A DNA stretch of 64,000 nt from Pseudomonadota bacterium (GTDB taxonomy: Bacteria > Pseudomonadota > Alphaproteobacteria > MPNO01 > UBA830). The notes under the pieces are model-generated. The model worked only from the letters and a program-made list of their open reading frames with translations. It did no database searches and was not told where the DNA came from. This document shows positions 25,605-39,123 of this stretch, in pieces. The stretch spans positions 9,923 to 73,922 of the forward strand of contig JAYZFO010000008.1 of assembly GCA_036336685.1 (NCBI GenBank). The letters run 5' to 3'. The translations under genes and the position numbers were made by a program. Position 1 is the stretch's first letter; every line of letters begins with the position of its first letter.

Positions 25605-25775
25605 CGGCTTAATCTACCGCAGAACAATCAAATTTCAAATCAAACTCCGTATCCTATCGTGGTCCAATAAGATAAGCCCAAGACGACGTCTGAACAAACA
25701 CAATGTTTCTAAAACACGATTGAAAAGGTTATCAAAACAAGATACTATCCAATCAGTATGTGGCTAGGCAGAATA

Positions 25776-26435
25776 ATGGATGCTCAAGCTGAAGATATTA
25801 TAGCAAATGATGACCGTGCGCGCCCGGCGACGAAACGTGAGCAGCGGGCCGCAAGCATCGAATCTCTTCTCGGTGAGGCGTTGACGCTTTTCATTACACA
25901 GGGGTATCACGCGACGACGGTGGAAGAAATTGCTCAAGCTGCGGGACTAACAAAGGGGGCGGTATATTTTTACTTCAAGAGTAAAGCGAATGTGCTGAAA
26001 GCGCTCCTCGCCAGAACAGAAGAATTAACTGTCGAACCCACCTTAGCGGCAATGTCCGCTGCGGGGTCAGACCCAAAAGCCCGACTTAATGCGTTCGTTC
26101 GTTCCCAATCGGTGATTGGGGCAGAGAAAACAGAATATATGCTGTTAGCCATCCTGATGAGTGCGGAATTTAACGGTTCTGGTCAGGAGATTGAGCGTCG
26201 TTTAACCGAGTTAATGGCGCGAATGGAAACCGAATTACGCGATACAATCTCTACTGGGCAGAATATGGGTTTCTTTCGCAAAGGAATAGGGGCAAATGAG
26301 TTGGCAAGTGTAATCATGGCAACAAATAAAGGCTGTTATGTAGAGTGGTATATGCGCGGTGGGGACCTGAAAGGGCATGACTTTGCGCGCGCATTCCGCG
26401 ATTTCGTTTTCGACGGGGTAGCTAAGAAATTATGA
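25776..26435 (+). CDS. TetR/AcrR-family regulator (first gene of the Paa-like operon)
   Basis: It has the HTH TTVEEIAQAAGLTKGAVYFYFKSK. It ends 69 bp upstream of the PaaA-like gene on the same strand. The start is the ATG at 25776 or at 25758. Confidence 0.85.
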   Translation: MDAQAEDIIANDDRARPATKREQRAASIESLLGEALTLFITQGYHATTVEEIAQAAGLTKGAVYFYFKSKANVLKALLARTEELTVEPTLAAMSAAGSDPKARLNAFVRSQSVIGAEKTEYMLLAILMSAEFNGSGQEIERRLTELMARMETELRDTISTGQNMGFFRKGIGANELASVIMATNKGCYVEWYMRGGDLKGHDFARAFRDFVFDGVAKKL

Positions 26436-26503
26436 AAACCCCTCATTTCATTTTCGACAACGTTTAAAAAAGCAATTTTAATTCGGAGAAAGGCAACTAC
26501 CCA

Positions 26504-27457
26504 ATGGCAACGGCAATTAAAGATGTACAAGAAGACCCACGCGAACGCGCATTACAGGAGCGCGTTGCCGCCGGCCATCAGCTGGAAGACGTAGAGGAAA
26601 TGACGCCGCGGTACAAAGATGTCTTGGTAAATACCATCCACATCGCAGCCGACTTGGAGGTTGTGACACTGCCAACATACTCACCGGCCATTAAAACCTC
26701 GCCAACACTCGAAGATAAAATTGCGATAGCTGCAGCTTGCCAGGACGAACTCGGACACGCCCAAATGATGTATCGTATATTAGAAGATTTTGGTTACGAC
26801 ACCCATCGCTTCTTATTTGAGCGAGACCCAGAGGAGTGGCGTACATTTCAGATGTTAGAATTCCCTCATGAGGATTACATAGAATCGGTTGTTTCTATGT
26901 GCTACGGCGATCGGGCAGGCTACATAACGACTGTAGATCTCGAAGAAAACTGTTCATATGCACCCTTTGCACGTTCGTTGCGAAAGGTGAATTACGAAGA
27001 AACTTTCCACGTCAGCCATGGTGAGCGTTGGACGAAATTTTTCTGGAACCAATCAGACGAAAGTCGGCGTCGCGTTCAAGAAACAGTGGATTTTTATTTT
27101 CCACTGTGTGCGGCGTGGTTCGGGATGCCCGACAATTTAAAAACCCGCACCGACCAGCTATCCTACCGAATTCGGGGCGCTTCAAATGACGAAATGCGGC
27201 AGAAATGGCTGTCTCGGGTTGTTCCATTTTCAGAGAGTGTCGGCGTCAAGGTTCCCGCCCACTACGACAACGATCAGGGTAAATACGTATTAGACTATAA
27301 GCCACCAATTTACCTGGATGAAGAGAAGCGTGAATGGGATTACGATCGCAATATTACCTGGAAAGAACAACTTAAGATCTGGAAAAAGGGGTCGAAACAT
27401 AAAGTGCCGTCGATCGCCCGTGTAATCTCCGAACAATGGGGTAAGGATCTTTGGTAA
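26504..27457 (+). CDS. PaaA-like diiron acyl-CoA (phenylacetyl-CoA-type) epoxidase catalytic subunit
   Basis: It is 317 aa with two ExxH iron-ligand motifs (QDELGHAQ, EETFHVSHGERW). Size and layout match PaaA, and PaaB- and PaaC-like genes follow it. Confidence 0.82.
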   Translation: MATAIKDVQEDPRERALQERVAAGHQLEDVEEMTPRYKDVLVNTIHIAADLEVVTLPTYSPAIKTSPTLEDKIAIAAACQDELGHAQMMYRILEDFGYDTHRFLFERDPEEWRTFQMLEFPHEDYIESVVSMCYGDRAGYITTVDLEENCSYAPFARSLRKVNYEETFHVSHGERWTKFFWNQSDESRRRVQETVDFYFPLCAAWFGMPDNLKTRTDQLSYRIRGASNDEMRQKWLSRVVPFSESVGVKVPAHYDNDQGKYVLDYKPPIYLDEEKREWDYDRNITWKEQLKIWKKGSKHKVPSIARVISEQWGKDLW

Positions 27458-27510
27458 ACATTGAATTAGAGATGTGGAAACATCTATGATGATCCAGCAA
27501 CTTATTATAA

Positions 27511-27843
27511 ATGCCTAATCAACAGACGCCGCCATCCCAGGACACCCTTCTGCAGGCACTGGAAAAAGTTAACGATCCTCATGTGCCAGTAAGCCTTCGC
27601 CGAATGGGCATGCTGCGGGACATTGAAATAGGGGACAATGGCCTAGTTAAAATACAGATTTGCATTCCGTGTTTGGGTTGCCCGGGTGTCGGGATGCTTC
27701 GCGAAAACGTGCGCATGGCAGCACTGTCAGTACCGGGAGTAGAAGAGGTCGTAATAGAGGAAGGGTGGCACCTTCCCTGGTCACGCGACATGATAGAACC
27801 TGAAGTCCAGGAGATGATGCGTGCAAATGGCATCCAAGTTTAA
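27511..27843 (+). CDS. DUF59/MIP18-domain protein equivalent to the N-terminal domain of PaaD
   Basis: It is 110 aa. VNDPHVPVSLRRMGMLRDIEI...CIPCLGCPG parallels the PaaD N-domain (my recollection of E. coli PaaD). It ends at what would be the interdomain linker. Confidence 0.72.
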   Translation: MPNQQTPPSQDTLLQALEKVNDPHVPVSLRRMGMLRDIEIGDNGLVKIQICIPCLGCPGVGMLRENVRMAALSVPGVEEVVIEEGWHLPWSRDMIEPEVQEMMRANGIQV

Positions 27844-27858
27844 ATAGGAAAGTCGACT

Positions 27859-28131
27859 ATGACGACAAAAATAAAATCTAAAAAAAAGATCAATCAAAAA
27901 AGAGAACGTGGGGGCAAAGAACCAAAATATTACGAAGTATTTGCTCGCAAAGACTCGAACTCCGACCTTTCCCACGTGGGATCAGTTGAAGCGCCAAACG
28001 ACGAACTCGCCCAAGTACGTGCCTGGTACATATATGATCAACACCGTTGGCGCGAAATGTGTGTGGTGCCATTAGAGGCAATCATCACTGTTACCGAAGA
28101 AGGCAAGTCCGCCAAGATCAAAATGGGCTAA
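27859..28131 (+). CDS. PaaB-like small subunit of the acyl-CoA epoxidase
   Basis: It is 90 aa. YYEVFARK...SHVGSVEAP...A...YIYDQHRWREMCVVP matches the PaaB pattern (YEVF.R...H.GS..A). It has an AGGAAAG RBS. Confidence 0.8.
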   Translation: MTTKIKSKKKINQKRERGGKEPKYYEVFARKDSNSDLSHVGSVEAPNDELAQVRAWYIYDQHRWREMCVVPLEAIITVTEEGKSAKIKMG

Positions 28132-28154
28132 CCACAAGAGAAAAGGGATTAAAG

Positions 28155-28934
28155 ATGGTGTACACTCCTGGAGTACCGGGTACAGCGTTAGACGAACAGT
28201 TCAGAAACGACCTCCTAGCCGTGGCCGATACAAAGCTGGTTCTAGGCAATTGGTATGCCGAGTGCGTGATGAATGGCCGCTCGCTGCCAGATTTTGCGGC
28301 AATCCTCGGTATGTGTACCGCAAATTACGGTCATACTCGCGCTATATATCAATATTTAGCCGCACACGGTCACGATTATGTATATCTAGAGCGGGGCCGT
28401 GGACCCGAGGATATCCATTCTTCCAACCTACTCGATGAAGCTCCTACCGGGTGGGAAGATTTCATAGTTTCAACGTGGCTGGCTGAATTAGCTACTTGGA
28501 TGTTGGTTTCAGGTTATCTTAATCATGAGGATAGAGCCGTCGCAGGCCTTTCCAAGAAAATTGGCGAAGAGACATACTTCCACCTAAAGTACGCGAATGG
28601 TTGGTTCCAGATAATTGGCGAAGGAAAGAAACAATCCCAGCTTTTCCAGAAGTCCTATACAAAGCGATTCCCATTAGCGCTTCAGTGGTTCGGCCCGGTG
28701 CGCGGCAAAGATCAGGTGCACGAACTTGGTATCCGAGACGTACCCCTCAAAAAGCTACGAGATGCGTTTAAAAAAGAAGTCGCTAGTGCAAAAAACCCCT
28801 TAGGTGCCGCTCTCGGCCAAGCAAAACCTATAAAGTTTGCAAAAGACTGGCGCTCAGATGCCCGGCGGTTGGGGCCAATACCTGCCAGTTTATTTGAGGT
28901 GGTTCGTTTCAAGGACACAGAACTTGCCCACTGA
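28155..28934 (+). CDS. PaaC-like structural subunit of the acyl-CoA epoxidase
   Basis: It is 259 aa and looks like a ferritin-like helical protein (LLAVADTKLVLGNWYAECV, EETYFHLKYANGW). The position after paaB fits PaaC. I prefer the ATG at 28155 with an AAGGGA RBS; the ORF-track start at 28047 runs through paaB. Confidence 0.75.
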   Translation: MVYTPGVPGTALDEQFRNDLLAVADTKLVLGNWYAECVMNGRSLPDFAAILGMCTANYGHTRAIYQYLAAHGHDYVYLERGRGPEDIHSSNLLDEAPTGWEDFIVSTWLAELATWMLVSGYLNHEDRAVAGLSKKIGEETYFHLKYANGWFQIIGEGKKQSQLFQKSYTKRFPLALQWFGPVRGKDQVHELGIRDVPLKKLRDAFKKEVASAKNPLGAALGQAKPIKFAKDWRSDARRLGPIPASLFEVVRFKDTELAH

Positions 28935-29181
28935 CACCTCTATCCCGCGCATAGGCCGAGATCTGGGCGGATATGCGTCCCGTCACCGCGACCTTCACAC
29001 TGGTGACCCAGACTTCAACGACGTCACATGTCCGGAATGTGATAGTGATAAATTAGAAGTCATTTCGCTATTCGGTGGAGCCGCTTCCGAAATAATGTTC
29101 CGATGTCATGACTGTGATACCAGCTTCAACTGGATCAAGTGGCGCGGAAAACTACCCCCGACACCATCGGTCAAAGAATAA
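28924..29181 (+). CDS. Stand-alone zinc-ribbon protein equivalent to the C-terminal domain of PaaD
   Basis: CPECDSDKLEVISLFGGAASEIMFRCHDCDTSFNWIKW contains CxxC...CxxC, as in the PaaD C-terminus. I prefer the TTG at 28924, which has an AAGGA RBS 8 nt upstream. The ATGs at 28837 and 28858 would overlap paaC by 98 and 77 nt. Confidence 0.6.
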   Translation: MPTDTSIPRIGRDLGGYASRHRDLHTGDPDFNDVTCPECDSDKLEVISLFGGAASEIMFRCHDCDTSFNWIKWRGKLPPTPSVKE

Positions 29182-29194
29182 ACGGACGTATTTA

Positions 29195-29956
29195 ATGACT
29201 AAACACACTGCCGCACCACTCGTATCAGCGGCGGAAATCGTCAAAAATAAGCGCTCAGAGATGACGGACCCTGGTATTCCACGGCCGGACACACACGTGG
29301 AAGATGCCTTGCTTTCGCGGCGTTCGATAAGAGCTTTTAAGAACAACGCCGTACCAAAAAATGTAATTCGGCGCATTCTAGAATGTGCTCGATGGTCTCC
29401 GTCTGGCTCCAACACCCAACCGTGGAAAGTTCACGTGCTAAATGGTGACGCCCGGCAAAGATATACCAAAGCATTGTTAGCGGCGGAAAAAAACAATGAA
29501 CCAAGCGCTATGGAATACCACTACTACGCCCCGGAGTGGAGAGAACCATTTTTGAATCGGCGGCGTTCCTGTGGTTTTGGACTGTATAAGGCGATGGACA
29601 TAAAAAGGGAAGACAAGGTGCAACGGCACGAGGCTTACCTGAAGAATTTCAAATTTTTCGGGGCTTCGACTGGATTCCTTTTTTGGATACCCTCCGATTT
29701 AGAGCACGGGTCTTGGCTAGACTATGGAACATTCATCCAATCAATATCCATTGCAGCGCGCGGTTGGGGCCTATGGACAATTGCGCAGGGTGCTCTCGGC
29801 GAATACCCGCATGTGGCACACAAAATGTTCAACGTAGATGATGATTATAAGTTAGTCGGCGGGATGAGCATTGGATGGCCAGATGAAAATGCCGCCGTAA
29901 ATAGTTTTCAACCTGAACGACTGAGCGTAGATGAATTCACCACATGGCTAGATTGA
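29195..29956 (+). CDS. Nitroreductase-family FMN flavoprotein
   Basis: It has the motifs RRSIRAF...RWSPSGSNTQPWK and is about 253 aa. The ATG at 29195 lies just after the zinc-ribbon stop; the ORF-track start at 29108 overlaps that gene. Confidence 0.85.
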   Translation: MTKHTAAPLVSAAEIVKNKRSEMTDPGIPRPDTHVEDALLSRRSIRAFKNNAVPKNVIRRILECARWSPSGSNTQPWKVHVLNGDARQRYTKALLAAEKNNEPSAMEYHYYAPEWREPFLNRRRSCGFGLYKAMDIKREDKVQRHEAYLKNFKFFGASTGFLFWIPSDLEHGSWLDYGTFIQSISIAARGWGLWTIAQGALGEYPHVAHKMFNVDDDYKLVGGMSIGWPDENAAVNSFQPERLSVDEFTTWLD

Positions 29957-29963
29957 AGGAACG

Positions 29964-30758
29964 ATGGATTACAGCATATACAAGACTCTTCTATTTGAGA
30001 AAAATAACAGGATACTAACGGTTACGTTAAACCGGCCAGAAAAGTTAAATGCCATCGATGGAACGATGCACGAAGAACTTTCCCGTGTCTTTGAAGACAT
30101 AAATAGAGATCGGTCTGTAGATATCGTCGTACTAACTGGTGCTGGCCGGGCCTTTTGCGCAGGCGGTGATACTGATTGGCTGCAGGATTTAATCGACGAC
30201 CCATGGGGCTGGGAAACGTTGTCTGAAGAGGGCAAAAGATCAATGCTTAGCATCCTGGATTGCCGACAACCTATTATTGCAAAGGTCAACGGAGCCGCAG
30301 CAGGCCTAGGAGCGACCCTTGCGCTCTACTGTGATATCATAATGGCAGCGGATACGGCGCGAATTGGGGACCCCCATGTAAATGTAGGGCTGACCGCAGG
30401 CGATGGTGGCTCGGGCATCTGGCCCTATCTGATAGGCTTCGCTCGCGCAAGAGAGTTTTTATATACCGGCGAAATGCTGACCGCAGACCGTGCTGCAGAC
30501 ATCGGCCTGATAAATCGATGTGTACCAGCCGATGACCTGGATAATGTCGTAGACAAATTTGCCAACAATCTTGCGGATGGGGCTATTCGAGCTATTCATT
30601 GGACAAAACAAGCTATTAATGCGCCTTTAAAGCAACTTGTATCCACAAATTTAGATTATTCTCTATCACTAGAAGCCAAATCAAATATTACTGCGGACCA
30701 CCAGGAGGGCATTAATGCACTTCGCGAAAAGCGACGACCGGCCTTCAAAGGTGAGTAG
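29964..30758 (+). CDS. Crotonase-superfamily protein (enoyl-CoA hydratase/isomerase family, atypical active site)
   Basis: It has the motifs LNRPEKLNA, LTGAGRAFCAGGD and VNGAAAGLGATLAL. The position of the first catalytic Glu (the PE of canonical hydratases) reads PH (His138). The second Glu context (AREFLYTG) is retained. Confidence 0.88.
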   Translation: MDYSIYKTLLFEKNNRILTVTLNRPEKLNAIDGTMHEELSRVFEDINRDRSVDIVVLTGAGRAFCAGGDTDWLQDLIDDPWGWETLSEEGKRSMLSILDCRQPIIAKVNGAAAGLGATLALYCDIIMAADTARIGDPHVNVGLTAGDGGSGIWPYLIGFARAREFLYTGEMLTADRAADIGLINRCVPADDLDNVVDKFANNLADGAIRAIHWTKQAINAPLKQLVSTNLDYSLSLEAKSNITADHQEGINALREKRRPAFKGE

Positions 30759-30806
30759 TGTAAACACGCTCGTGAACAGTAAACGGAATTTTCTGAAATA
30801 CTCACA

Positions 30807-31670
30807 ATGAAAACATTTGATCGGGCCACTTTAACAGAAGCGGAAATGGAATGGCATTTCAACCCGCGTGTGACTTTTCCTAATCACGTTGAATACATGC
30901 GCACTCGAGCAGAAACGAATGCGCGTGTCCTGGAAAAATTGGAGCGATTGCCCAACTTTCGATATGGGCCAAACCCCGAGGAAACCCTCGATATATACCC
31001 GAGCAAGGGAGGATTGTCTCCAGTTCTTGTCTACATCCACGGCGGGTATTGGCGCGCGGGGTACAAAGAGGATTGGGCATTTGTCGCCGAACCCCTCATA
31101 GAATCTGGAGCTACTGTGGTCGTATTGAACTACGACCTCTGTCCAACGGTAAGCCTAGATGAGCTTGTGTCGGAAATACGAAGAGCAATCATTTGGATTT
31201 ATCAGAATGTTAAGCAATACGGTGGCAACCCAAGTAAAATGTATATTTCAGGAAGCTCAGCAGGAGGCCACCTATGCGCGATGATGCTAGCAGAAGACTG
31301 GTCCAAACAGAGGGCACCGCCCGACCTACTGAAAGGAGCAACCCTTATCACGGGAATTTACGATATTCACCCAGTGATCGATATTAGTGTTAACGTTGAT
31401 ATCAAGCTGGATAAATATTCGGCACAAAGAAATAGCCCGATGTTTCTGCCGCCCCTAATTACGGGCCCAATTCTCGCCGCAGTAGGCGGAAAAGAATCAG
31501 AGGGGTGGAAACAACAAACCCACGATTACGTATCTATGTGCACAAAAAATAACATCAAATGCGATTTTTTGGAATTGCCCGAAGAAGACCATTTTTCTAT
31601 AGGTTCTATTTTGGGAGATCCTGGTAGTCCTCTGGTCCAAGTAACCCTCCGACAGATGGGCCTGATGTAA
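30807..31670 (+). CDS. Alpha/beta hydrolase, arylformamidase/esterase-like (HGGYW type)
   Basis: It has the oxyanion motif VYIHGGYW, the nucleophile elbow GSSAGGH and a late DH. The HGGYW motif is characteristic of kynurenine-formamidase-type hydrolases as I recall them. Confidence 0.72.
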   Translation: MKTFDRATLTEAEMEWHFNPRVTFPNHVEYMRTRAETNARVLEKLERLPNFRYGPNPEETLDIYPSKGGLSPVLVYIHGGYWRAGYKEDWAFVAEPLIESGATVVVLNYDLCPTVSLDELVSEIRRAIIWIYQNVKQYGGNPSKMYISGSSAGGHLCAMMLAEDWSKQRAPPDLLKGATLITGIYDIHPVIDISVNVDIKLDKYSAQRNSPMFLPPLITGPILAAVGGKESEGWKQQTHDYVSMCTKNNIKCDFLELPEEDHFSIGSILGDPGSPLVQVTLRQMGLM

Positions 31671-31681
31671 TTGATAGCTTC

Positions 31682-32611
31682 TTAAAAGATACGCGCCTCA
31701 AATCGGAGAAAACTTGCGGCGCGGTCATCTACTGTGCCATCTACAAGCGTGTGAAAGCTCCCTAAGGCAACCAGTTGAGCCTCGTTCCGATAGAGCTCAC
31801 ATCGTAGCTCATAATGCTCCCCTACAAGACCCGGGCGCCGGAATATTACGCGAGACCCAGTCGCCAATATTCGATCGAGCGGCAAAGATGCATCCGCAGC
31901 TAATGCGCCCATCCTATTTTCCATCGCATATAAATATTCACGCGCATGCACGTGAAGAAACACATCCGAATTTGCCATAGTCCAAACACCCCGCACGTGC
32001 TTAGAACCTTGCACGTCGACGGTATTATAATTCTCGGGCAAACGGCTGAGCGTCTTTATGGTGGGAAATTCCCCGTCAAAGGGCTTCAATGTTAAAAACT
32101 TTAGATTATCAGGGACCTCGGTTACCAATCTATCGCCCCGAGGCTGTTTGGGGCGTGTCAACATGTGGATGACCCTACTTCTGCCAGCGACGGCTAAATC
32201 CCCAAGCGGTGGCTCAAACCCAACGGCAGCGGCGGGACCCGTCACGACACGACTTCGAAGCGTACCACGAGTTTCAACCACTAAACGCTCGTTTGCACCA
32301 TCTGGGCTCTCTACCCCAGCGTTTCGTAACGACACCCGTAATTCTGTTTTTAGCGCCTCATCGTATCCATACTCACGGGGATAAGCATTAAACTCCTGAT
32401 AGTACTGGCCAGGCGCAATTCCGTCCTTAATACCCATCTCTTGGTAGCGAAGGCGACCTTGCATGTCCTCAAAAACAGGGCGCAGGCCTGGTCCAATGAA
32501 CATCCTAATCTTGAGATTTCGGCTTTGGTCGATATCACCAACATCTACCCGGTGATATCCCCGCCGCACCAGTTCACCCTTTTCAACAGTTATTTCTGCT
32601 GTTTTGTTCAT
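31682..32611 (-). CDS. Hypothetical 309-aa protein (possible tandem hotdog fold), last gene of the minus-strand operon
   Basis: This is a clean ORF with an ATG start, beginning 19 nt after the ligase gene stop. I recognised no family. The C-terminal half contains SDVFLHVHAREYLYAMENRMGAL, which resembles the D-x3-HV-x4-Y..E pattern of YbgC/4HBT hotdog thioesterases. Confidence 0.55.
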   Translation of the reverse strand: MNKTAEITVEKGELVRRGYHRVDVGDIDQSRNLKIRMFIGPGLRPVFEDMQGRLRYQEMGIKDGIAPGQYYQEFNAYPREYGYDEALKTELRVSLRNAGVESPDGANERLVVETRGTLRSRVVTGPAAAVGFEPPLGDLAVAGRSRVIHMLTRPKQPRGDRLVTEVPDNLKFLTLKPFDGEFPTIKTLSRLPENYNTVDVQGSKHVRGVWTMANSDVFLHVHAREYLYAMENRMGALAADASLPLDRILATGSRVIFRRPGLVGEHYELRCELYRNEAQLVALGSFHTLVDGTVDDRAASFLRFEARIF

Positions 32612-32630
32612 GTCTGAATCTATGAGTAAC

Positions 32631-34196
32631 TTATGAATCTAAACGATTAGTTTCAGCCATTTCCCGTAAAGCGGTGCGATCCACCTTTTTCGCTGGTGTA
32701 AGCGGCAACTTGTCCATAATCGAAATGATCCGCGGGTGCATGTATGGCGCGCCGTTCTCAAAAAAATACGACTTAAGTTCTTCTGGCGTAGTATTTCCAG
32801 CAACCCGCTCTACGACAAATGCAACTGGGACCTCCCCTTTAACAGGGTCAGAACGCGGCACAACAGCGGCGTCGGCAATATTTTGGTGCTCCATTAGTAT
32901 ATTTTCGACTTCCTTCGGATAAAAAACTTCTCCAGCACAGGCAATACGATCGTCTTCACGTCCAATTATTTCTATATACCCCTGCTCGTCCGCGCTTGCG
33001 ATATCGTTTGTACGTAACCACCCACCAGGCAGCAACCGCTGCGCAGTAATTTCTGGAAGGTTATGGTAACCAATCAGGTTTCCAGGGCTACGAACCAATA
33101 ATTCTCCTTTTTGACCCTGAGAAACATCTACCCCTGGGCTTTTCGGATCTACTATTCGGAGTTCCACATCGGGATAGGGTAGTCCTGTGGTGCCCTGCTT
33201 TATAATTCCCCATCTCGGAGTATTACACACGAAACCGCACTCAGTGAGGCCGTAAGCCTCTAACATGGGTGCCAGACGTTCAGAAAACTCGGAGAGTAAC
33301 TCCTCTGGAACCTCTGAGGACCCGCATATCACAAAACTCAACGACGAACAGTCATTTTTCTCTAGGGCTTCGTCCTCCATCAACATCAGCTTATACATAG
33401 CTGGAACCCCAGTGGTATAGGTACAACGTTCCTTGGCAATTGCTTCTATCATTTCCACCGGGTCAACATCATGGAGAATTACCGTCGAGCCACCACTCTC
33501 AAGCATAGAAAACAAACCCGCAAACATCCCATTTGCGTGAAACATTGGGACCGCTAAAAGGCAACGTTCATCGGGACCAAAGAGAAGCGCTCGCCGGAGG
33601 TTTCGGGTAGACCACACCATTGCCGCGTGTGACAAGAGGACACCTTTTGGTTTTCCTGTTGAACCCGATGTATAGGATACTGCGGCAATTGCGTCAGACG
33701 AAACATTTTCGGCAACACGGGCATCTGACTGCTCATTAAGCCATTCATCGTATTCGATAGCTCCATCGGCGATGGTATCCATCAGAAATACTTGCTTAAT
33801 ATTTGGTAAGTTTTTCCCGAGCGATGGAGCCTCATCTATAAAATCTGCCGACGAAAATAAAACCTTAGCATTACAATCCGACAAAATGTGGCTCAACGTA
33901 TTATAATGGGCCCGGGTGGTTGCGGGAGTAACCGAGGCGCCCGCGCGCAACGCGCCTAACATAGTTTCGACGAACCGGTGATCGTTCTTTACAAGTACGG
34001 CAACATGGTCACCAATGCCGACACCGAGTTGTCTCAAGCCGTTGGCTACTCGGTTCACTCTCGATTCCAAAACAGAATAGGTAATACGGTTCTGACCATA
34101 GATTAGCGCCTCTTTTTCGGGCCAAACCTTGACGGCGTTATCGATGATGCAGCCGAAATTCAACGAGTAAACTCCTCTTTTCGCATCTAGTGTCAC
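32631..34196 (-). CDS. AMP-dependent acyl-CoA synthetase (ANL family)
   Basis: It has the motifs YTSGSTGKPKGV, YGLTE, GWLRTND and PLTPAKKVDR. It is 521 aa, larger than the roughly 430-aa PaaK-type ligases. It starts at a GTG (34196) with no nearby ATG. Confidence 0.9.
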   Translation of the reverse strand: MTLDAKRGVYSLNFGCIIDNAVKVWPEKEALIYGQNRITYSVLESRVNRVANGLRQLGVGIGDHVAVLVKNDHRFVETMLGALRAGASVTPATTRAHYNTLSHILSDCNAKVLFSSADFIDEAPSLGKNLPNIKQVFLMDTIADGAIEYDEWLNEQSDARVAENVSSDAIAAVSYTSGSTGKPKGVLLSHAAMVWSTRNLRRALLFGPDERCLLAVPMFHANGMFAGLFSMLESGGSTVILHDVDPVEMIEAIAKERCTYTTGVPAMYKLMLMEDEALEKNDCSSLSFVICGSSEVPEELLSEFSERLAPMLEAYGLTECGFVCNTPRWGIIKQGTTGLPYPDVELRIVDPKSPGVDVSQGQKGELLVRSPGNLIGYHNLPEITAQRLLPGGWLRTNDIASADEQGYIEIIGREDDRIACAGEVFYPKEVENILMEHQNIADAAVVPRSDPVKGEVPVAFVVERVAGNTTPEELKSYFFENGAPYMHPRIISIMDKLPLTPAKKVDRTALREMAETNRLDS

Positions 34197-34212
34197 CAGA
34201 AGACGACGCGCT

Positions 34213-34680
34213 TTAGGATTTTATTTCCTCTACGTTACCACAGAATTCAAAGCATTCCATAAGCAGGCCGTTTAATGAGCCCGGCTTAATCCAATTTGCT
34301 TTCAGTTTTTCCACGCGATAACGAGCTGCCGCGGTGCCGGGCGGAAATTCGTAAGGTTTGTCCAAAACCCATTCGATACCGAAGGCCGGCCATTCAGACA
34401 TTGCTTCCGAAATGTTATCAACACGCACGGCTAAAGAAAAAGTTCCTTCGCCGCGACGGTCCAAAAACTTTTGTACAGTTGAAGATGTGTCGGTTGGCGC
34501 CACTAGTGAAATTGCTCCCTGCCTTCCCATGGGGAAGGTAATATCCGTGATCTGTGCAGGAGGGTCGGGCATTACATTAGGGACAAGCGGGGTAAGACCG
34601 AGCACCGCGAACTTTGCGACGGCTTCACTCTGGTCAAACACCGCATAATTGACAGTAATATATTCGAGGATACGGGCCAT
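34213..34680 (-). CDS. VOC-family protein, methylmalonyl-CoA-epimerase-like
   Basis: It is 155 aa and looks like a two-module VOC fold (VNYAVFDQSEAVAKFAVLGL..., GEGTFSLAVRVDNISEAM). It lies 4 nt from the LLM gene and 16 nt from the ligase gene. Confidence 0.6.
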   Translation of the reverse strand: MARILEYITVNYAVFDQSEAVAKFAVLGLTPLVPNVMPDPPAQITDITFPMGRQGAISLVAPTDTSSTVQKFLDRRGEGTFSLAVRVDNISEAMSEWPAFGIEWVLDKPYEFPPGTAAARYRVEKLKANWIKPGSLNGLLMECFEFCGNVEEIKS

Positions 34681-34684
34681 AATG

Positions 34685-35857
34685 TTACTTTTTTATCACC
34701 GCACTCGGATCGTTATAAACGCCTGTCCGCTTAGCTTCTTCTCGCATTTCTCGAATATCAGTCATGACGTCCTCGGGAGGACGCATAAAATTATCTGGAG
34801 ACTTAAAATGCGGAATTACATAACGACCAAACATTTCAATCGACTTAATAATCTTTTCATGGGGAACACTATCAATACGTAGAGCAAGCGTATTAACACC
34901 ACAATCACGAAGCCGTTCGATAGAGCGTATACAACTTTCCGGACTGCCAAACACCGCAGAACCAGATTCTTCTTGAAAGTAATCAAGGTTCGTAGCTTTC
35001 TTGGACACTTCTTGGACCTTGGCCATATAGGCATAACTTTTTGCGACCTTCGCGAGCCTAGGATAGCCATCTAACGCTATCTGTAGCCACTTGATATTGC
35101 CCTCCCCCGCTTCTTGCCTCGCGATTTCATCGGTTTCAGCACAGTAAGCCTGCAACAGCGCACCAACACGTCTCCGGTCCACTGAATTTCCTGCTGCTTC
35201 TTCAATATCTGCTGCCTTGTTATACTCTCGGATAGATTCGGCGAGTGGGTCGTACCCCATATAGTTCGACCAACTAAAAACCCCTATTCCGAGCTCGGCC
35301 GCCATAACGTGAGATTCGGCACTTGTTGCAGCCATGTACATAGGCGGATGAGGTTTTTGTATGGGTTTGGGAACCAATGACCTCGGTGGGATTTGGTAGT
35401 GATCTCCATAAAACATAAAGGGGTCTTCGGTGAATGCTTTCTTTAATACTTGTATGCCTTCATGGACCTCTGACCGGCTTTGTTCCAAATCTACACCAAA
35501 CGCTCTTAACGCCAGGGTGGTATTACCCCTTCCGATTCCTAACTCAATCCGCCCGTCGGACAACACATCCTGCACACCAGTGCGGGAAGCAATTCGAAGT
35601 GCGTGATTAACATTTTTAGGTAGAAGAGTTATTGCGTGAGCAAAACGCAACGTTTTGGTTAAGGAAAACAAGTACGCAAATAAAACTTCGGGACATGAAG
35701 TAGAAATGCCTCCAATGGCGTACTGCTGTTCGGATACACCAAAAGAATCAAAGCCCCATTTTTCGGCGTGTATCACTTGCTCAACAAGTTCTTTGTATCG
35801 AATTTGATACGATTCACCGTCGAGCGTCTCACCTTCTGAAAAATACATAAATCGCAT
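34685..35857 (-). CDS. Luciferase-like (LLM class) flavin-dependent monooxygenase
   Basis: It has MRFMYFSEG...AEKWGFDSFGVSEQQY and GRIELGIGRG motifs typical of LLM TIM-barrel oxygenases. It is about 390 aa. I prefer the ATG at 35857 with an AGGGA RBS. Confidence 0.85.
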   Translation of the reverse strand: MRFMYFSEGETLDGESYQIRYKELVEQVIHAEKWGFDSFGVSEQQYAIGGISTSCPEVLFAYLFSLTKTLRFAHAITLLPKNVNHALRIASRTGVQDVLSDGRIELGIGRGNTTLALRAFGVDLEQSRSEVHEGIQVLKKAFTEDPFMFYGDHYQIPPRSLVPKPIQKPHPPMYMAATSAESHVMAAELGIGVFSWSNYMGYDPLAESIREYNKAADIEEAAGNSVDRRRVGALLQAYCAETDEIARQEAGEGNIKWLQIALDGYPRLAKVAKSYAYMAKVQEVSKKATNLDYFQEESGSAVFGSPESCIRSIERLRDCGVNTLALRIDSVPHEKIIKSIEMFGRYVIPHFKSPDNFMRPPEDVMTDIREMREEAKRTGVYNDPSAVIKK

Positions 35858-35983
35858 AGCATCGTTCCCTAACTGCAACGACGCCCAAAGTCAAAACCAA
35901 CTTCGACGACTTCGTCTTCAATTGTCACGGATGTCATAAGGTTTAAAAATTCGCTCACAAATGGAACAACAATTCAGGAACTA

Positions 35984-37009
35984 TTATTCTGGTTGACAAT
36001 ATCGGACCAAACCATCGTCGTGACGCACACGTGCTAGATCACCAGCATCAACGAGATAGTTCAGGTGCGCTAATGTTTCTCCGATCGCAAAACTAAATTC
36101 ATAGACGCCTATTTCTCGAGTGAATAAAGCGGGAATGACATCTGTGGCTGTGGTTGGTCGGGCACATTTGTCGACGGCGGCATCAAGGCGGGTTTGATGG
36201 TGAGCAATCAGGTCGTCCATCCGTTCATGCAAGCCGCGAAAGGGATCGTCATGGGACGGCAAAACTAGAACATCTTCAGGTAGATGCCTAAATTTCTCAA
36301 AACTCTTTAAATAATTACCCAATGGATTTCCGTCGGGTTCGGTGTACCACACGCTAATATTTGAACTTATTCGAGGCAGAACCTGATCACCCGAAATTAA
36401 TAGATTCAGATCGGGACACCATAAAGCTGCATGTTCATGCGTATGACCTCCCCCAGTTATCACGTGCCACAGACGGCCATCTATTTCGATTTCCTCGTTA
36501 TCCTGAATTCTTCGAACTGTCTCTGGCAACCGATACCATGGTTCTTTGAAGGACCGTATTACATCCCTAAAACCAGTTGTCATTTCGGGCGGCGCCCCAT
36601 TATCTCGATGGAACTGAACCCATCGATCAAAGTTGTGAGTCAGAGTTTCCGATACAGCCACATGAGCCTGCAACCACTCAGTGTATGTCATCCAAAGGCG
36701 AGCGTTAAAACGTTCAAAAAACCAACCTGCGAGGCCGAGGTGGTCTGGATGAAAATGAGAACAGATTGTTCGTTTTATGGTACCACCATCAGCAATTCTC
36801 GACAGTGATGTCTCCCAAATGTCCTTTGACCTATCAACATTATATCCAGTATCTATGACGGTCCACGCGTCGCCATCACGTAATAACCATAAATTGATGT
36901 GGTTCAGAGCAAAGGGTAGAGGCATTCGGACCCAGTGGATGCCTGGTGCTACTTCCTTCGTCTCGCCATATTCTAGTTTGGCGAACGGGTAGTCGGGCGT
37001 AAAAGTCAT
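35984..37009 (-). CDS. MBL-fold metallo-hydrolase
   Basis: It has the zinc motif SHFHPDHLG, later GGGHTHEH and SHDD motifs, and a C-terminal extension of about 90 aa. It is 341 aa. Confidence 0.85.
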   Translation of the reverse strand: MTFTPDYPFAKLEYGETKEVAPGIHWVRMPLPFALNHINLWLLRDGDAWTVIDTGYNVDRSKDIWETSLSRIADGGTIKRTICSHFHPDHLGLAGWFFERFNARLWMTYTEWLQAHVAVSETLTHNFDRWVQFHRDNGAPPEMTTGFRDVIRSFKEPWYRLPETVRRIQDNEEIEIDGRLWHVITGGGHTHEHAALWCPDLNLLISGDQVLPRISSNISVWYTEPDGNPLGNYLKSFEKFRHLPEDVLVLPSHDDPFRGLHERMDDLIAHHQTRLDAAVDKCARPTTATDVIPALFTREIGVYEFSFAIGETLAHLNYLVDAGDLARVRHDDGLVRYCQPE

Positions 37010-37035
37010 TGTTTAGTTTATACGGTGCCGATATC

Positions 37036-37857
37036 TCACCGGCAATACAACCCTAGAAATTTGCTGATACGTATCGCGACTTTTTCGGGGTCCTCAAGCT
37101 GGGGGAAATGACCCAAGCCCTTAATCATCTCAATTTCAGCAGTTGGAACCGCACATTTTATGCCGTCCAACTGACTGGGAAGACCGTAGGCGTCGTCAGA
37201 CCCCTGGATTGCGAGAAGTGGAACATTTATATCTTCTATTTCCTCGCTAATATCCCACGAGTCGTAAAGTGTTTTCTGCCATACTTCGCTCCAACGACGC
37301 AGGAGATGGGCGGCTCTATCACCATGAAACCGAGCCATCCAATCAGGGATAGTGCCTTCTTGATACATTTGATGATGGCGTAATACCTGTCCATACGTAA
37401 GTTCATCTCGACACACGTGAGCAGCAATTGTAACTATCGCGCGAACCCTTCCTTGGTACCTTGCCCCATGCAAAAGCGCTACTGTACCTCCATCAGAATG
37501 ACCAATTAAACAACAATCCTTGATCCCCGCCGCATCAAGAACATCTTCTAGAAAGTCTGCTGCTTCCCCCATAAAATCGTCAGGGAATTCTTCTTCGACA
37601 TCGGACCGTCCATAGCCAAGGCGATCAAATGTGAAAGCTGACAATCCCATTGTTCGGGAAATCTGTTGTGGAAATTTACGCATTGTACCGACACTTCCCA
37701 GCCCATCATGCAGAAACACGAGCGACGGTCCAGTGCGCTGCTTTTGATATTGCCAAATTCCGAAGATCGTGCGCCCACGAACTTCTAACCAACTGGCTCC
37801 TGGCGCATCGTCAGGTGGGTCACTGATACCAAAATTGGACGGTTTTCGACTAAGCAT
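37036..37857 (-). CDS. Alpha/beta-fold hydrolase (lactonase/esterase-like)
   Basis: It has LVFLHDGLGS, the nucleophile elbow GHSDGG and a C-terminal GLGHFPQLE (His). It is 273 aa and starts 45 bp downstream of the phaR stop on the same strand. Confidence 0.85.
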   Translation of the reverse strand: MLSRKPSNFGISDPPDDAPGASWLEVRGRTIFGIWQYQKQRTGPSLVFLHDGLGSVGTMRKFPQQISRTMGLSAFTFDRLGYGRSDVEEEFPDDFMGEAADFLEDVLDAAGIKDCCLIGHSDGGTVALLHGARYQGRVRAIVTIAAHVCRDELTYGQVLRHHQMYQEGTIPDWMARFHGDRAAHLLRRWSEVWQKTLYDSWDISEEIEDINVPLLAIQGSDDAYGLPSQLDGIKCAVPTAEIEMIKGLGHFPQLEDPEKVAIRISKFLGLYCR

Positions 37858-38511: not shown

Positions 38512-38563
38512 GTCGATACCTTTCAAAAATATGCACTCAACATTTTAGTCTTACATTTTTGTT

Positions 38564-38591
38564 GCACCGCATCAATCTTTTGATGCGGTGC
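38564..38591. promoter_or_regulatory. Perfect 11-bp inverted repeat upstream of phaR (candidate PhaR operator or 5'-UTR hairpin)
   Basis: GCACCGCATCA (38564-38574) and TGATGCGGTGC (38581-38591) are exact reverse complements with a 6-nt spacer. Each arm contains TGC-N3-GCA. The repeat lies about 40-55 nt upstream of the phaR start. No T-run follows it on either strand. Confidence 0.45.
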
Positions 38592-39108: not shown

Positions 39109-39123
39109 TTGTGCAATGCACAA
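39109..39123. promoter_or_regulatory. Palindrome TTGTGCA-A-TGCACAA upstream of phaA (candidate PhaR operator)
   Basis: It has 7-bp perfect arms around a single central base and contains TGC-N3-GCA. It lies 100 nt upstream of the phaA ATG. Confidence 0.4.

What the first reader, a model, noticed from the sequence alone, without database searches (positions are those of the whole stretch)
25776..37857. Convergent two-operon CoA-dependent oxygenase/hydrolase island of unknown substrate (best candidate for an undescribed system)
Twelve kb of back-to-back genes do not match any textbook pathway I can name. The plus-strand operon is TetR, PaaA-like, DUF59 (PaaD N-domain), PaaB-like, PaaC-like, zinc ribbon (PaaD C-domain), nitroreductase, atypical crotonase, and HGGYW hydrolase. 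The converging minus-strand operon is alpha/beta hydrolase, MBL hydrolase, LLM monooxygenase, VOC/epimerase-like, a 521-aa ANL ligase, and an unknown 309-aa protein. It resembles the upper phenylacetate pathway (ligase, PaaABC epoxidase, crotonase-type isomerase). However, it lacks PaaE, PaaZ, PaaH, PaaJ, PaaI and a PaaK-type ligase. In their place it has a second, flavin-dependent oxygenase and three hydrolases. Two different oxygenases, CoA activation and lactonase/esterase-type hydrolases together suggest ring epoxidation or Baeyer-Villiger-type oxygenation of a CoA-tethered cyclic or aromatic acid. That reading is inference only. Flanking genes on both sides are housekeeping, and no mobility genes are present.
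Basis: partly seen in the sequence, partly recalled or inferred. Interest (0 to 1): 0.78.

Follow-up and report, generated by a model that had tools for sequence, protein, structure and literature searches.

The report
Mosaic CoA-ester oxygenase gene island
The 12-kb stretch is real, but it is a patchwork of at least two independent, uncharacterised gene modules rather than one pathway. The more interesting module is a widespread phenylacetate-epoxidase-like iron oxygenase that has no reductase gene of its own and probably attacks an aromatic CoA ester such as benzoyl-CoA.

Summary
All 15 genes exist as described and are intact, and the flanks are housekeeping genes. Comparative genomics splits the island into modules.

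**Module 1 (25758-30758, + strand).** TetR, PaaA', DUF59, PaaB', PaaC', Zn-ribbon, nitroreductase and a crotonase lacking both catalytic Glu. The five-gene oxygenase core recurs in 70 of 80 genome loci across Alpha-, Beta- and Gammaproteobacteria, Actinobacteria and Sulfobacillus. No PaaE-type reductase was detected beside it, and a CoA ligase or transferase lies nearby in every neighbourhood annotated in detail. In Actinobacteria (PaaA' 78-81%, crotonase 70-72% identical) the operon continues with a ligase, a close homologue of phthaloyl-CoA decarboxylase and a benzoate-CoA-ligase-family gene. This points to an aryl-CoA substrate.

**MBL plus alpha/beta hydrolase (35984-37857, - strand).** These are Module 1's usual convergent partners in Alphaproteobacteria.

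**Module 2 (31682-35878, - strand).** LLM, VOC, ANL ligase and the 309-aa protein, which I model as a double-hotdog thioesterase-like fold. This cassette stands alone, without any Paa-like gene, in soil Alphaproteobacteria. In the window it replaces a transporter-binding-protein gene and two small thioesterase genes found in sister lineages.

No source or paper searched assigns a function to either module. The single-pathway reading is only partly supported.

The parts
25758..26435 (+). TetR-family regulator of Module 1
   Evidence: TetR_N 61 bits. A TetR gene directly upstream of PaaA' was detected in 48 of 80 genome loci.
26504..27457 (+). PaaA': catalytic diiron subunit of a divergent PaaABC-type acyl/aryl-CoA oxygenase
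   Evidence: PF05138 at 174 bits. TIGR02156 at 119 bits, below the 280-bit cut-off. Ligands E52, E82, H85, D136, E166 and H169 align with those of E. coli PaaA and are invariant in alignment A1.
27511..27843 (+). DUF59 protein, equivalent to the N-terminal half of a split PaaD
   Evidence: FeS_assembly_P 55 bits. Hits PaaD models below their cut-offs. Present in 76 of 80 loci.
27859..28131 (+). PaaB' bridging subunit
   Evidence: PF06243 at 33.5 bits against a 27-bit cut-off. Present in 77 of 80 loci.
28155..28934 (+). PaaC': structural subunit lacking iron ligands
   Evidence: PF05138 at 68 bits. The first ExxH motif is replaced by TANYGH (read directly from the translation). 259 aa, as in relatives.
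28924..29181 (+). Zn-ribbon protein, equivalent to the C-terminal half of a split PaaD
   Evidence: PF23451 at 43.9 bits. TTG start at 28924 gives the 85 aa called in relatives. Present in 71 of 80 loci.
29195..29956 (+). FMN nitroreductase-family oxidoreductase, a lineage-specific accessory of Module 1 and candidate electron supplier
   Evidence: PF00881 at 100 bits. Nearest structures are 3gr3 and NfnB. Present in 15 of 62 loci, all alphaproteobacterial; 13 of those 15 lack the LLM. Absent from close relatives L006, L007 and L010.
29964..30758 (+). ECH': Glu-less crotonase that co-occurs with PaaA'
   Evidence: ECH_1 at 189 bits. Below all NCBIfam cut-offs, with PRK07327 best and PaaG at 186 bits against 345. 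The GLGAT and IGDPHV...AGDGG motifs are invariant in Alpha-, Gammaproteobacteria and Actinobacteria partners. 70-72% identical directly downstream of the oxygenase genes in Actinobacteria.
30807..31670 (+). HGG-motif esterase (BD-FAE/Abhydrolase_3) that travels with Module 2 in marine lineages
   Evidence: Pfam. In the loci examined it is present only where the 309-aa gene is present: L002, L003, L083-85, L091-93.
31682..32611 (-). U309: double-hotdog protein, thioesterase-like (Module 2)
   Evidence: No Pfam, NCBIfam or PDB sequence hit. 93 homologues only. AlphaFold2 model with pLDDT 91. Foldseek best matches are acyl-ACP thioesterases (E 6.5e-12), LnmK and ACOT7.
32631..34196 (-). ANL acyl-CoA ligase of Module 2
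   Evidence: AMP-binding 292 bits. 67-68% identical in soil cassettes that lack Paa genes. Only 25-31% identical to the ligases adjacent to PaaA' elsewhere.
34213..34680 (-). VOC protein resembling methylmalonyl-CoA epimerase (Module 2)
   Evidence: Glyoxalase_4 at 35 bits. TIGR03081 at 44 bits, below the 115-bit cut-off. 52-58% identical in the soil cassettes.
34685..35878 (-). Luciferase-like flavin-dependent monooxygenase (Module 2). The true start is probably the ATG at 35857.
   Evidence: Bac_luciferase 157 bits. 73-76% identical in the soil cassettes. Nearest structures are uncharacterised LLMs and LuxA.
35984..37009 (-). MBL-fold hydrolase with winged-helix C domain, a convergent partner of Module 1
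   Evidence: Pfam. 281 bits to the uncharacterised structures 6ao1, 5i0p and 5u8o. Lies next to PaaA' operons in 17 of 62 loci, including those without Module 2.
37036..37857 (-). Alpha/beta hydrolase (weakly PcaD-like), paired with the MBL
   Evidence: Abhydrolase_6 at 70 bits. PcaD at 73 bits, below the 256-bit cut-off. MBL and this hydrolase occur together in 15 of 62 loci.

Best explanation
The region is a mosaic catabolic locus of an uncultured marine Rhodospirillaceae bacterium. It is built from independently inherited modules that all handle CoA thioesters.

**Module 1 (25758-30758, + strand).** This is a TetR-controlled operon for a PaaABC-type diiron oxygenase that has no PaaE.
- PaaA' is catalytic, PaaB' is the bridging subunit and PaaC' is the ligand-less structural subunit.
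- The maturation factor PaaD is split into a DUF59 protein and a Zn-ribbon protein.
- Inferred steps: the oxygenase oxygenates (most likely epoxidises or hydroxylates) the ring of an aromatic acyl-CoA close to benzoyl-CoA. The dedicated Glu-less crotonase ECH' then isomerises or hydrolytically opens the product, by analogy with PaaG and BoxC.
- Inferred: electrons come from a reductase encoded elsewhere. In this lineage the operon's FMN nitroreductase-family protein possibly helps.
- Inferred: the convergent MBL hydrolase and alpha/beta hydrolase (35984-37857) are the usual alphaproteobacterial partners of Module 1 and probably hydrolyse a downstream lactone, ester or thioester.

**Module 2 (31682-35878, - strand, plus the esterase at 30807-31670).** This is an autonomous cassette.
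- An ANL ligase activates an unknown acid.
- An LLM flavin monooxygenase and an epimerase-like VOC protein modify the CoA ester.
- The double-hotdog U309 releases or decarboxylates it.
- In the window this cassette sits where sister genomes carry a TRAP binding-protein gene and two small FlK-type thioesterase genes.

**Shown:** gene content, the diiron ligand set, the modular distribution, the fold of U309 and the neighbours in other genomes.

**Inferred:** substrate class, reaction types, electron donor, and whether the two modules cooperate.
For: **Modularity**
- The oxygenase core (PaaA', DUF59, PaaB', PaaC', Zn-ribbon) is present in 70 of 80 genome loci from five phyla or classes.
- Among 62 loci with at least 8 kb downstream, ECH' occurs in 22, the nitroreductase in 15, MBL plus alpha/beta hydrolase in 15, and Module 2 in only 2.
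- Loci seeded on U309: 13 of 14 with enough flank carry LLM, VOC and ligase (LLM 73-76%, ligase 67-68% identical). The 11 soil or Stellaceae loci have no Paa-like gene.
- Module 2 has its own TetR-4HBT fusion regulator in soil and in marine L083, L091 and L093.
- Sister marine loci carry DctP and two FlK thioesterase genes at the insertion point, and ApbA plus a ligase (with a malate-synthase-like gene where the locus extends far enough) beyond the alpha/beta hydrolase.

**Oxygenase function**
- All six PaaA diiron ligands are kept.
- PaaC' lacks the first ExxH motif.

**CoA substrate**
- A ligase or CoA transferase lies beside the operon in Actinobacteria, Azospirillum, Bradyrhizobium, Allopusillimonas and gammaproteobacterial loci.

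**Aromatic substrate**
- In Amycolatopsis and Streptosporangiales the operon (PaaA' 78-81%, ECH' 70-72% identical) runs on into an ANL ligase and a UbiD protein.
- That UbiD scores 572-607 bits (E 1e-170 to 1e-181) against phthaloyl-CoA decarboxylase, whose product is benzoyl-CoA (PMC13040137).
- The clusters also carry a benzoate-CoA-ligase-family gene (369 bits against a 375-bit cut-off), a second UbiD in L023 and L087, and UbiX in L024.
- The freshwater alphaproteobacterial locus L031 has the same nitroreductase, ECH', FlK, MBL and alpha/beta hydrolase set. There a ligase 56% identical to that benzoate-CoA-ligase-family gene follows ECH'.
- PCD-like UbiD genes (48-50% identical) also accompany more distant PaaA' clades in L040, L056 and L058.

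**ECH'**
- The GLGAT and DPH motifs are invariant across all lineages examined.

**U309**
- Confident model with a double-hotdog thioesterase-like fold.
Against: - No enzyme of either module has been tested, and the substrate inference rests on neighbours in other phyla.
- The window itself has no UbiD, no benzoate-type ligase and no aromatic-acid transporter gene.
- The nitroreductase is missing from close relatives L006, L007 and L010 (PaaA' 91% identical) and from all non-alphaproteobacterial clusters. It cannot be an obligate reductase.
- Clusters in Bradyrhizobium and Allopusillimonas (PaaA' 54-58% identical) carry FadB and thiolase but no UbiD. They fit an aliphatic or alicyclic acyl-CoA equally well.
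- Modules 1 and 2 are adjacent in eight related marine loci: L002, L003, L083-85, L093, and the truncated L091 and L092. The window has also lost the Lig5-type ligase, the FlK thioesterases and Module 2's regulator. Functional coupling in this lineage is therefore not excluded.
- The screen for PaaE-like reductases was a crude motif search.
Confidence: 0.55

Rival explanations
1. This is the first reader's model: one integrated 15-gene pathway. The 521-aa ligase activates a cyclic or aromatic acid. PaaA'B'C' and the LLM perform two successive oxygenations (epoxidation and Baeyer-Villiger-type), with the nitroreductase serving as flavin reductase for the LLM. The esterase, MBL, alpha/beta hydrolase and U309 then open and release the products.
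For: - The two modules are adjacent in eight related marine loci.
- The window lineage lacks the Lig5-type ligase, the FlK thioesterases and the TetR-4HBT regulator found in relatives. Module 2's ligase and U309 could fill those roles, and LLM, VOC, ligase and U309 could be read through from the MBL operon, since the gap is only 105 bp.
- Nitroreductase-family proteins are known flavin reductases for LLMs (established knowledge).
Against: - Module 2 occurs without any Paa-like gene in 11 soil or Stellaceae loci, with its own regulator.
- 60 of 62 PaaA' loci lack Module 2.
- The nitroreductase is present in 13 loci that have no LLM.
- PaaA' operons elsewhere carry unrelated ligases of their own.
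Confidence: 0.2
2. Module 1 is not a ring epoxidase. It is a hydroxylase or desaturase for an aliphatic or alicyclic acyl-CoA, feeding a beta-oxidation-like route.
For: - Clusters in Allopusillimonas, Imbroritus and Bradyrhizobium combine the oxygenase with a ligase, FadB and a thiolase, and in Allopusillimonas and Imbroritus also an SDR and a crotonase. No acyl-CoA dehydrogenase or UbiD was seen among the annotated genes.
- No PaaZ- or BoxC-type ring-cleaving enzyme is present in the window.
Against: - The subclade closest to the window (70-81% identical) is linked to a phthaloyl-CoA decarboxylase homologue and a benzoate-CoA-ligase-family gene.
- The canonical paa pathway also uses FadB-like and thiolase enzymes after ring opening, so those neighbours do not discriminate (established knowledge of PaaF, PaaH and PaaJ).
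Confidence: 0.2
3. The plus-strand genes are a degenerate or remodelled remnant of the ordinary phenylacetate (paa) cluster and still act on phenylacetyl-CoA, with the missing genes encoded elsewhere in the genome.
For: - Sources annotate the homologues as PaaA or PaaC.
- A 2026 survey classes loci with only PaaA to PaaC as 'partial multicomponent' paa configurations (PMC13186573).
Against: - All four subunit types fall far below the equivalog cut-offs: 119 against 280, 30 against 85, 41 against 133, and 48 or 27 against 108.
- The match to E. coli PaaA is weak, at 78 bits.
- The split-PaaD architecture without PaaE is conserved across phyla, with intact ORFs and 91-99% identity among marine MAGs.
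- There is a dedicated ECH' subfamily.
- Partner genes (UbiD, other ligases) differ from paaK, paaZ and paaG.
Confidence: 0.05

Closest known systems
PaaABC(D)E phenylacetyl-CoA 1,2-epoxidase with PaaG isomerase (E. coli, Pseudomonas putida)
   Same: - A PF05138 catalytic subunit with the same six diiron ligands.
- A PaaB subunit, a ligand-less PaaC-type subunit and both PaaD domains.
- A crotonase-family gene in the same operon.
- CoA-ester logic.
   Different: - Only a weak match to E. coli PaaA (78 bits), and all subunits fall below the NCBIfam equivalog cut-offs.
- No PaaE reductase.
- PaaD is split into two genes that flank paaB'C'.
- No PaaK, PaaZ, PaaI, PaaH or PaaJ.
- The crotonase lacks both canonical Glu residues.
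- The partner genes differ: nitroreductase, MBL and alpha/beta hydrolase here; UbiD/UbiX and other ligases elsewhere.
BoxAB benzoyl-CoA 2,3-epoxidase with BoxC (aerobic box pathway)
   Same: - Diiron oxygenation of an aryl-CoA, followed by a crotonase-superfamily enzyme.
- From my own knowledge, the box pathway follows phthaloyl-CoA decarboxylase in the aerobic hybrid phthalate pathway of denitrifying bacteria. The position of PaaA' next to a PCD homologue in Actinobacteria is analogous.
   Different: - No BoxB model or BoxB structure was matched by PaaA'.
- No BoxA.
- ECH' is a 264-aa single-domain crotonase, not a BoxC-type enzyme. The size of BoxC is from memory.
CoA-dependent phthalate route: phthalate-CoA ligase or transferase, UbiD-type phthaloyl-CoA decarboxylase and UbiX
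   Same: Related actinobacterial loci carry an ANL ligase, a PCD homologue (572-607 bits) and UbiX, directly fused to the PaaA' operon.
   Different: - A 2026 review describes this route under anaerobic degradation, in obligate anaerobes and denitrifying facultative anaerobes (PMC13040137).
- These genes are absent from the window itself.
Two-component luciferase-like monooxygenases (LuxAB, SsuD, diketocamphane monooxygenases)
   Same: The Module 2 LLM has the Bac_luciferase fold family (157 bits), and its nearest structures are LLMs and LuxA.
   Different: - Below every NCBIfam LLM subfamily cut-off.
- The cofactor (FMN or F420) is unresolved.
- It is embedded with a CoA ligase, a VOC protein and a double-hotdog protein. 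I found no description of that combination.
Double-hotdog acyl-ACP thioesterases (FatA/FatB) and LnmK acyltransferase/decarboxylase
   Same: U309's predicted fold matches them: Foldseek E 6.5e-12 to about 4e-10, TM-score 0.5-0.6.
   Different: - 9-13% sequence identity.
- No Pfam or PDB sequence hit.
- A small family of 93 cluster representatives, nearly all without an assigned function; one JGI entry is named acyl-CoA thioesterase FadM.

Membership tests
Canonical PaaA (TIGR02156, 1,2-phenylacetyl-CoA epoxidase subunit A) | Score at or above the curated equivalog cut-off of 280 bits | tested here: not met
   119 bits. 78 bits to E. coli PaaA structures.
PaaA_PaaC ferritin-like diiron family (PF05138) | Pfam gathering score reached and the six diiron ligands present (E, ExxH, D, ExxH) | tested here: met
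   174 bits against a 28.5-bit cut-off. E52, E82, H85, D136, E166 and H169 align with the PaaA ligands and are invariant in 18 sequences. Ligand numbering for PaaA is from memory.
PaaABCDE multicomponent oxygenase | PaaB and PaaC subunits encoded alongside PaaA | tested here: met
   PF06243 at 33.5 bits against 27; PF05138 at 68 bits against 28.5. Both are below the NCBIfam equivalog cut-offs.
PaaABCDE multicomponent oxygenase | A dedicated PaaE reductase (FNR-like domain plus plant-type 2Fe-2S) | tested here: not met
   No ORF with the 2Fe-2S motif anywhere in the 64-kb window. No consistent candidate in 89 related loci. Pfam-annotated neighbourhoods show none. The motif screen is crude.
PaaABCDE multicomponent oxygenase | PaaD as a single DUF59 plus Zn-ribbon protein | tested here: not met
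   Both domains are present, but as two separate genes separated by paaB'C'.
Complete paa catabolic cluster | PaaK ligase, PaaG, PaaZ, PaaF/H, PaaJ and PaaI nearby | tested here: not met
   None reach their cut-offs in the island. Window 14-50 kb holds housekeeping genes only. The rest of the genome could not be examined.
BoxB benzoyl-CoA epoxidase | Sequence match to a BoxB model or structure | tested here: not met
   No BoxB family among the NCBIfam hits at E<=0.001. No BoxB chain among the PDB hits at E<=0.01.
Crotonase superfamily, canonical enoyl-CoA hydratase | ECH_1 fold with the two catalytic Glu residues | tested here: not met
   The fold is met, at 189 bits. Both Glu positions are replaced (GLGAT, DPH) and this is invariant in the subfamily. 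Motif positions are from established knowledge of rat ECH.
ANL adenylate-forming acyl-CoA ligases | AMP-binding and AMP-binding_C domains | tested here: met
   292 and 67 bits. Substrate class undetermined; the best subfamily, PRK06187, scores 420 bits against a 476-bit cut-off.
Luciferase-like monooxygenases | Bac_luciferase domain, plus a separate flavin reductase for two-component types | tested here: inconclusive
   The domain is met, at 157 bits. The nitroreductase could be a reductase, but it co-varies with Module 1 rather than with the LLM. The cofactor was not determined.
Hotdog-fold thioesterases | Double-hotdog fold, with a thioesterase active site | tested here: inconclusive
   The fold is met: pLDDT 91, Foldseek probability 1.0. 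An invariant D216...H220-V...Y226 motif resembles 4HBT/Fat motifs; this comparison is from memory and the alignment is. Activity was not tested, and LnmK-type decarboxylase function is equally compatible.
Methylmalonyl-CoA epimerase (TIGR03081) | Score at or above 114.95 bits | tested here: not met
   44.3 bits. Supports VOC-superfamily membership only.

The most novel reading that the evidence does not exclude
PaaA'B'C' together with ECH' is a third aerobic system for breaking the aromaticity of aryl-CoA esters, independent of PaaE and BoxA, alongside the Paa and Box systems. It acts on benzoyl-CoA or a close analogue. It would be used downstream of phthaloyl-CoA-type decarboxylases in aerobic Actinobacteria, and it is widespread in marine and freshwater Alphaproteobacteria. 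This would imply an unrecognised oxygen-dependent route for benzoate- or phthalate-type carbon in the ocean. Separately, the cassette of LLM, VOC, ligase and double-hotdog protein would be a new CoA-dependent flavin-monooxygenase pathway.
Probability: 0.25. Interest if true: 0.8.

Novelty: new variant of a known kind. Interest (0 to 1): 0.58.

Why it matters
As far as I know, only two diiron oxygenase systems (Paa and Box) are known to break the aromaticity of CoA-bound aromatic acids aerobically.

A third, reductase-less clade with its own crotonase would extend the 'hybrid' aromatic pathways. It is conserved from marine Rhodospirillaceae to Amycolatopsis and Bradyrhizobium, and in Actinobacteria it is fused to a phthaloyl-CoA decarboxylase homologue.

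It would also explain the loci that surveys currently file as 'partial' paa clusters. It gives cultured organisms in which to test an oxygen-dependent CoA route for phthalate isomers or benzoate: Amycolatopsis alkalitolerans, Azospirillum sp. ST 5-10, Allopusillimonas ginsengisoli and Bradyrhizobium species.

The analysis also defines a second uncharacterised cassette (LLM, VOC, ligase, double hotdog) and a new hotdog family that has no Pfam model.

Tried and rejected
- **Promoter and terminator scans** of 25-39.3 kb were at or below chance and were not used.
- **Insertion scars.** Direct and inverted repeat searches around the inserted segment found none, and composition shows no break.
- **Exact-sequence look-up** of the window's PaaA' found no record.
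- **U309 as a fusion of the two FlK thioesterases.** I tested whether U309 is a fused or diverged version of the two FlK thioesterase genes it replaces. hhalign gave probability 0.4%, so this is rejected.
- **Nitroreductase as the LLM's dedicated reductase.** Rejected as the main reading, because 13 of the 15 loci with the nitroreductase lack the LLM.
- **MBL and alpha/beta hydrolase as part of the adjacent PhaR/PhaA (PHB) genes.** The alpha/beta hydrolase scores 49 bits against a PHA depolymerase model with a 300-bit cut-off. The pair stays next to PaaA' in loci where PhaR is not detected. Rejected.
- **Furoyl-CoA (hmf-like) substrate.** Considered because of UbiD and xanthine-dehydrogenase-family neighbours. 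The UbiD next to the operon is far closer to phthaloyl-CoA decarboxylase (572 bits) than to HmfF-type 6h6v (103 bits).
- **Literature.** Eight searches found no description of either module.
- **RNA genes.** Rfam and tRNA scans of the window found nothing.

Full report
**Observation**

I made three small corrections.
- PaaC' most likely starts at 28155.
- The Zn-ribbon gene most likely starts at the TTG at 28924, giving the 85 aa called in relatives.
- The nitroreductase most likely starts at 29195.

None of the proteins reaches an NCBIfam equivalog cut-off. The 309-aa protein has no Pfam, NCBIfam or PDB sequence match.

The 'atypical crotonase' call is right. The two canonical catalytic Glu positions read GLGAT and DPH.

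The flanks are housekeeping genes on both sides. One side has the bc1 complex, SpoU, HemF, a second ANL ligase, CCA-adding enzyme, NUDIX and DUF1285. The other has PhaR, thiolase, GST, GloB, MetW/X and aromatic amino-acid genes.

There are no mobility genes, no flanking repeats and no compositional break. No PaaE-type ORF and no paralogous Paa gene exist anywhere in the 64 kb.

**Origin**

The closest public sequences are contigs of uncultured marine Rhodospirillaceae/Alphaproteobacteria MAGs. PaaA' is 99% identical in L001 and 98% in L002.

**Module 1: a conserved PaaABC-like oxygenase without PaaE**

PaaA' matches PF05138 (174 bits). It scores 119 bits on the PaaA equivalog model, whose cut-off is 280, and only 78 bits against E. 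coli PaaA. All six diiron ligand positions are nevertheless conserved. PaaC' lacks the first ExxH motif, as canonical PaaC does.

A genome scan returned 80 loci. tblastn of the window's proteins against them gave these counts:

| Feature | Loci |
|---|---|
| Five-gene core (PaaA', DUF59, PaaB', PaaC', Zn-ribbon) | 70 of 80 |
| ECH' at 50% identity or more | 22 of 62 with at least 8 kb downstream |
| Nitroreductase | 15 of 62 |
| MBL plus alpha/beta hydrolase | 15 of 62 |
| Module 2 (U309, ligase, VOC, LLM) | 2 of 62 |

- The core spans Alpha-, Beta- and Gammaproteobacteria, Actinobacteria and Sulfobacillus.
- The ECH' partner has invariant GLGAT and IGDPHV...AGDGG motifs in every lineage examined.
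- The nitroreductase occurs only in Alphaproteobacteria. It is absent from some 91%-identical relatives (L006, L007, L010).
- No PaaE-like reductase is consistently nearby.
- Among 1.84 billion cluster representatives, only about 15 full-length representatives score above roughly 160 bits. Canonical PaaA-like proteins follow at about 110 bits or less. This is a small clade and only gradually separated from canonical PaaA.

**What Module 1 acts on**

Every neighbourhood I annotated has a CoA-activating enzyme:
- ANL ligases in Actinobacteria, Azospirillum, Bradyrhizobium and gammaproteobacterial MAGs. The gammaproteobacterial locus also has a family III CoA-transferase.
- An ADP-forming ligase in Allopusillimonas.

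The subclade closest to the window is the most informative. In Streptosporangiales (L087) and Amycolatopsis alkalitolerans (L024), PaaA' is 78-81% identical and ECH' 70%. There the operon continues as follows:
- An ANL ligase, then a UbiD protein. That UbiD scores 572-607 bits (E 1e-170 to 1e-181) against phthaloyl-CoA decarboxylase.
- In L087, a benzoate-CoA-ligase-family gene (369 bits against a 375-bit cut-off) and a second UbiD.
- In L024, UbiX.

According to a 2026 review, phthaloyl-CoA decarboxylase yields benzoyl-CoA. The review describes this CoA-dependent route under anaerobic degradation, in obligate anaerobes and denitrifying facultative anaerobes (PMC13040137).

The freshwater alphaproteobacterial locus L031 shares the window's nitroreductase, ECH', MBL and alpha/beta hydrolase set. 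It carries two ligases inside the operon. One is 56% identical to the actinobacterial benzoate-CoA-ligase-family gene. PCD-like UbiD genes also accompany more distant PaaA' clades in L040, L056 and L058.

I therefore infer an aromatic acyl-CoA substrate, with benzoyl-CoA or a close analogue the leading candidate. ECH' would then play the role that PaaG or BoxC plays after epoxidation. This is inference, and nothing in the window itself names the substrate.

**MBL and alpha/beta hydrolase**

These two genes lie convergent to Module 1 in 15 alphaproteobacterial loci, at 49-93% identity, whether or not Module 2 is present. The MBL is a close homologue of three uncharacterised structural-genomics structures.

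In sister marine loci the minus-strand operon is longer. It holds a Lig5-type ligase, an ApbA-type reductase, the alpha/beta hydrolase, the MBL, two FlK thioesterases and DctP. A malate-synthase-like gene lies beyond the ligase where the locus extends far enough.

**Module 2: an autonomous cassette**

The 309-aa protein has only 93 homologous clusters. A confident AlphaFold2 model (pLDDT 91) is a double hotdog. It is closest to acyl-ACP thioesterases, LnmK and ACOT7.

I examined loci seeded on this protein from metagenomes and MAGs:
- LLM (73-76% identical), VOC (52-58%) and ligase (67-68%) travel with it in 13 of 14 loci with enough flank.
- The 11 soil or Stellaceae loci contain no Paa-like gene, ECH', MBL or alpha/beta hydrolase.
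- The cassette usually has a TetR-4HBT fusion regulator. This is present in soil and in marine L083, L091 and L093, and absent in the window, L002 and L003.
- The esterase at 30807-31670 appears only where the cassette is present in marine contigs.

In the window the cassette and esterase occupy the position of DctP and the two FlK genes. The window also lacks the upstream ApbA, Lig5-type ligase and malate-synthase-like genes. U309 is not a diverged FlK fusion.

**Conclusion on the interpretation**

The exact 15-gene set is found only in the nearest relatives, complete in L002 and, as far as the contig reaches, in L003. Variants with extra genes occur in L083 and L093, and truncated contigs L084, L085, L091 and L092 show parts of the same arrangement.

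More distant relatives show that the halves are independent. So 'one two-operon system' is not supported, and the 521-aa ligase cannot be assumed to feed the PaaABC-like oxygenase.

- This is not the canonical paa pathway.
- CoA-ester chemistry and oxygenases dominate the island.
- No assigned pathway exists. Source names are all generic, and eight literature searches found nothing specific. A 2026 survey files PaaA-to-PaaC-only loci as 'partial multicomponent' paa configurations without functional analysis (PMC13186573).

**Limits**

- No reaction has been tested.
- The electron donor is unknown, and the nitroreductase is dispensable in close relatives.
- The PaaE screen was a motif search.
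- I could not inspect the rest of the source genome.
- Functional coupling of the two modules in this particular lineage remains possible.

Noticed in passing
L024:10001-17300 (Amycolatopsis alkalitolerans); L087/L025:2825-13156 and L023 (Streptosporangiales): Aerobic Actinobacteria carry the PaaA' operon fused to an ANL ligase, a close homologue of phthaloyl-CoA decarboxylase (572-607 bits) and UbiX or a second ligase/UbiD pair. This looks like an undescribed oxygen-dependent CoA route for phthalate-type acids.
   Followed up: partly
L023-L026 compared with window 26504-27457: PaaA' is 78-81% identical and ECH' 70-72% identical between marine Alphaproteobacteria and Actinobacteria. That is far more than expected for vertical descent and suggests horizontal transfer of the oxygenase-crotonase core.
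   Followed up: no
window 19876-21453 (-): A second ANL acyl-CoA ligase, 26% identical to the island's ligase, sits among housekeeping genes 5 kb upstream. It is syntenic in L001-L003 and L005 at 62-95% identity. It is another candidate activating enzyme.
   Followed up: partly
It is found at 81-98% identity in 15 marine relatives, in about half of them within roughly 1-2 kb of the TetR gene, so it may belong to Module 1's neighbourhood.
   Followed up: partly
L088:8799-9899; L091 around 5500; L083:20689-end: Module 2 normally carries a regulator that fuses a 4HBT hotdog domain to a TetR DNA-binding domain, which is presumably a sensor of acyl-CoA. The window, L002 and L003 have lost it, leaving only 105 bp between the MBL and LLM genes.
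   Followed up: yes
L061-L080 (gammaproteobacterial MAGs): In the PaaA' clade that is about 40% identical, the gene order is PaaA', DUF59, PaaB', Zn-ribbon, PaaC'. The Zn-ribbon gene comes before PaaC' rather than after it.
   Followed up: partly
L067 (contig binned as Nitrosopumilus sp.): A PaaA' operon (42% identical) lies on a 7-kb contig assigned to an archaeal MAG. This is probably a binning error and was not checked.
   Followed up: no
window 37903-40398: PhaR and a PhaA-type thiolase lie directly beside the alpha/beta hydrolase. The hydrolase weakly resembles an intracellular PHA depolymerase (49 bits against a 300-bit cut-off). In relatives, however, the MBL and alpha/beta hydrolase pair stays with PaaA' where PhaR is not detected.
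   Followed up: partly
L088:1-380 and 4008-4649; L089:6388-7145: Soil Module 2 loci have an F420-ligase gene fragment and a nitroreductase nearby in L088, and transposase fragments 3 kb upstream in L089. The first bears on the LLM cofactor question and the second on the cassette's mobility.
   Followed up: no
window 1-64000: There are no tRNA genes and no Rfam family at gathering threshold anywhere in the window.
   Followed up: yes
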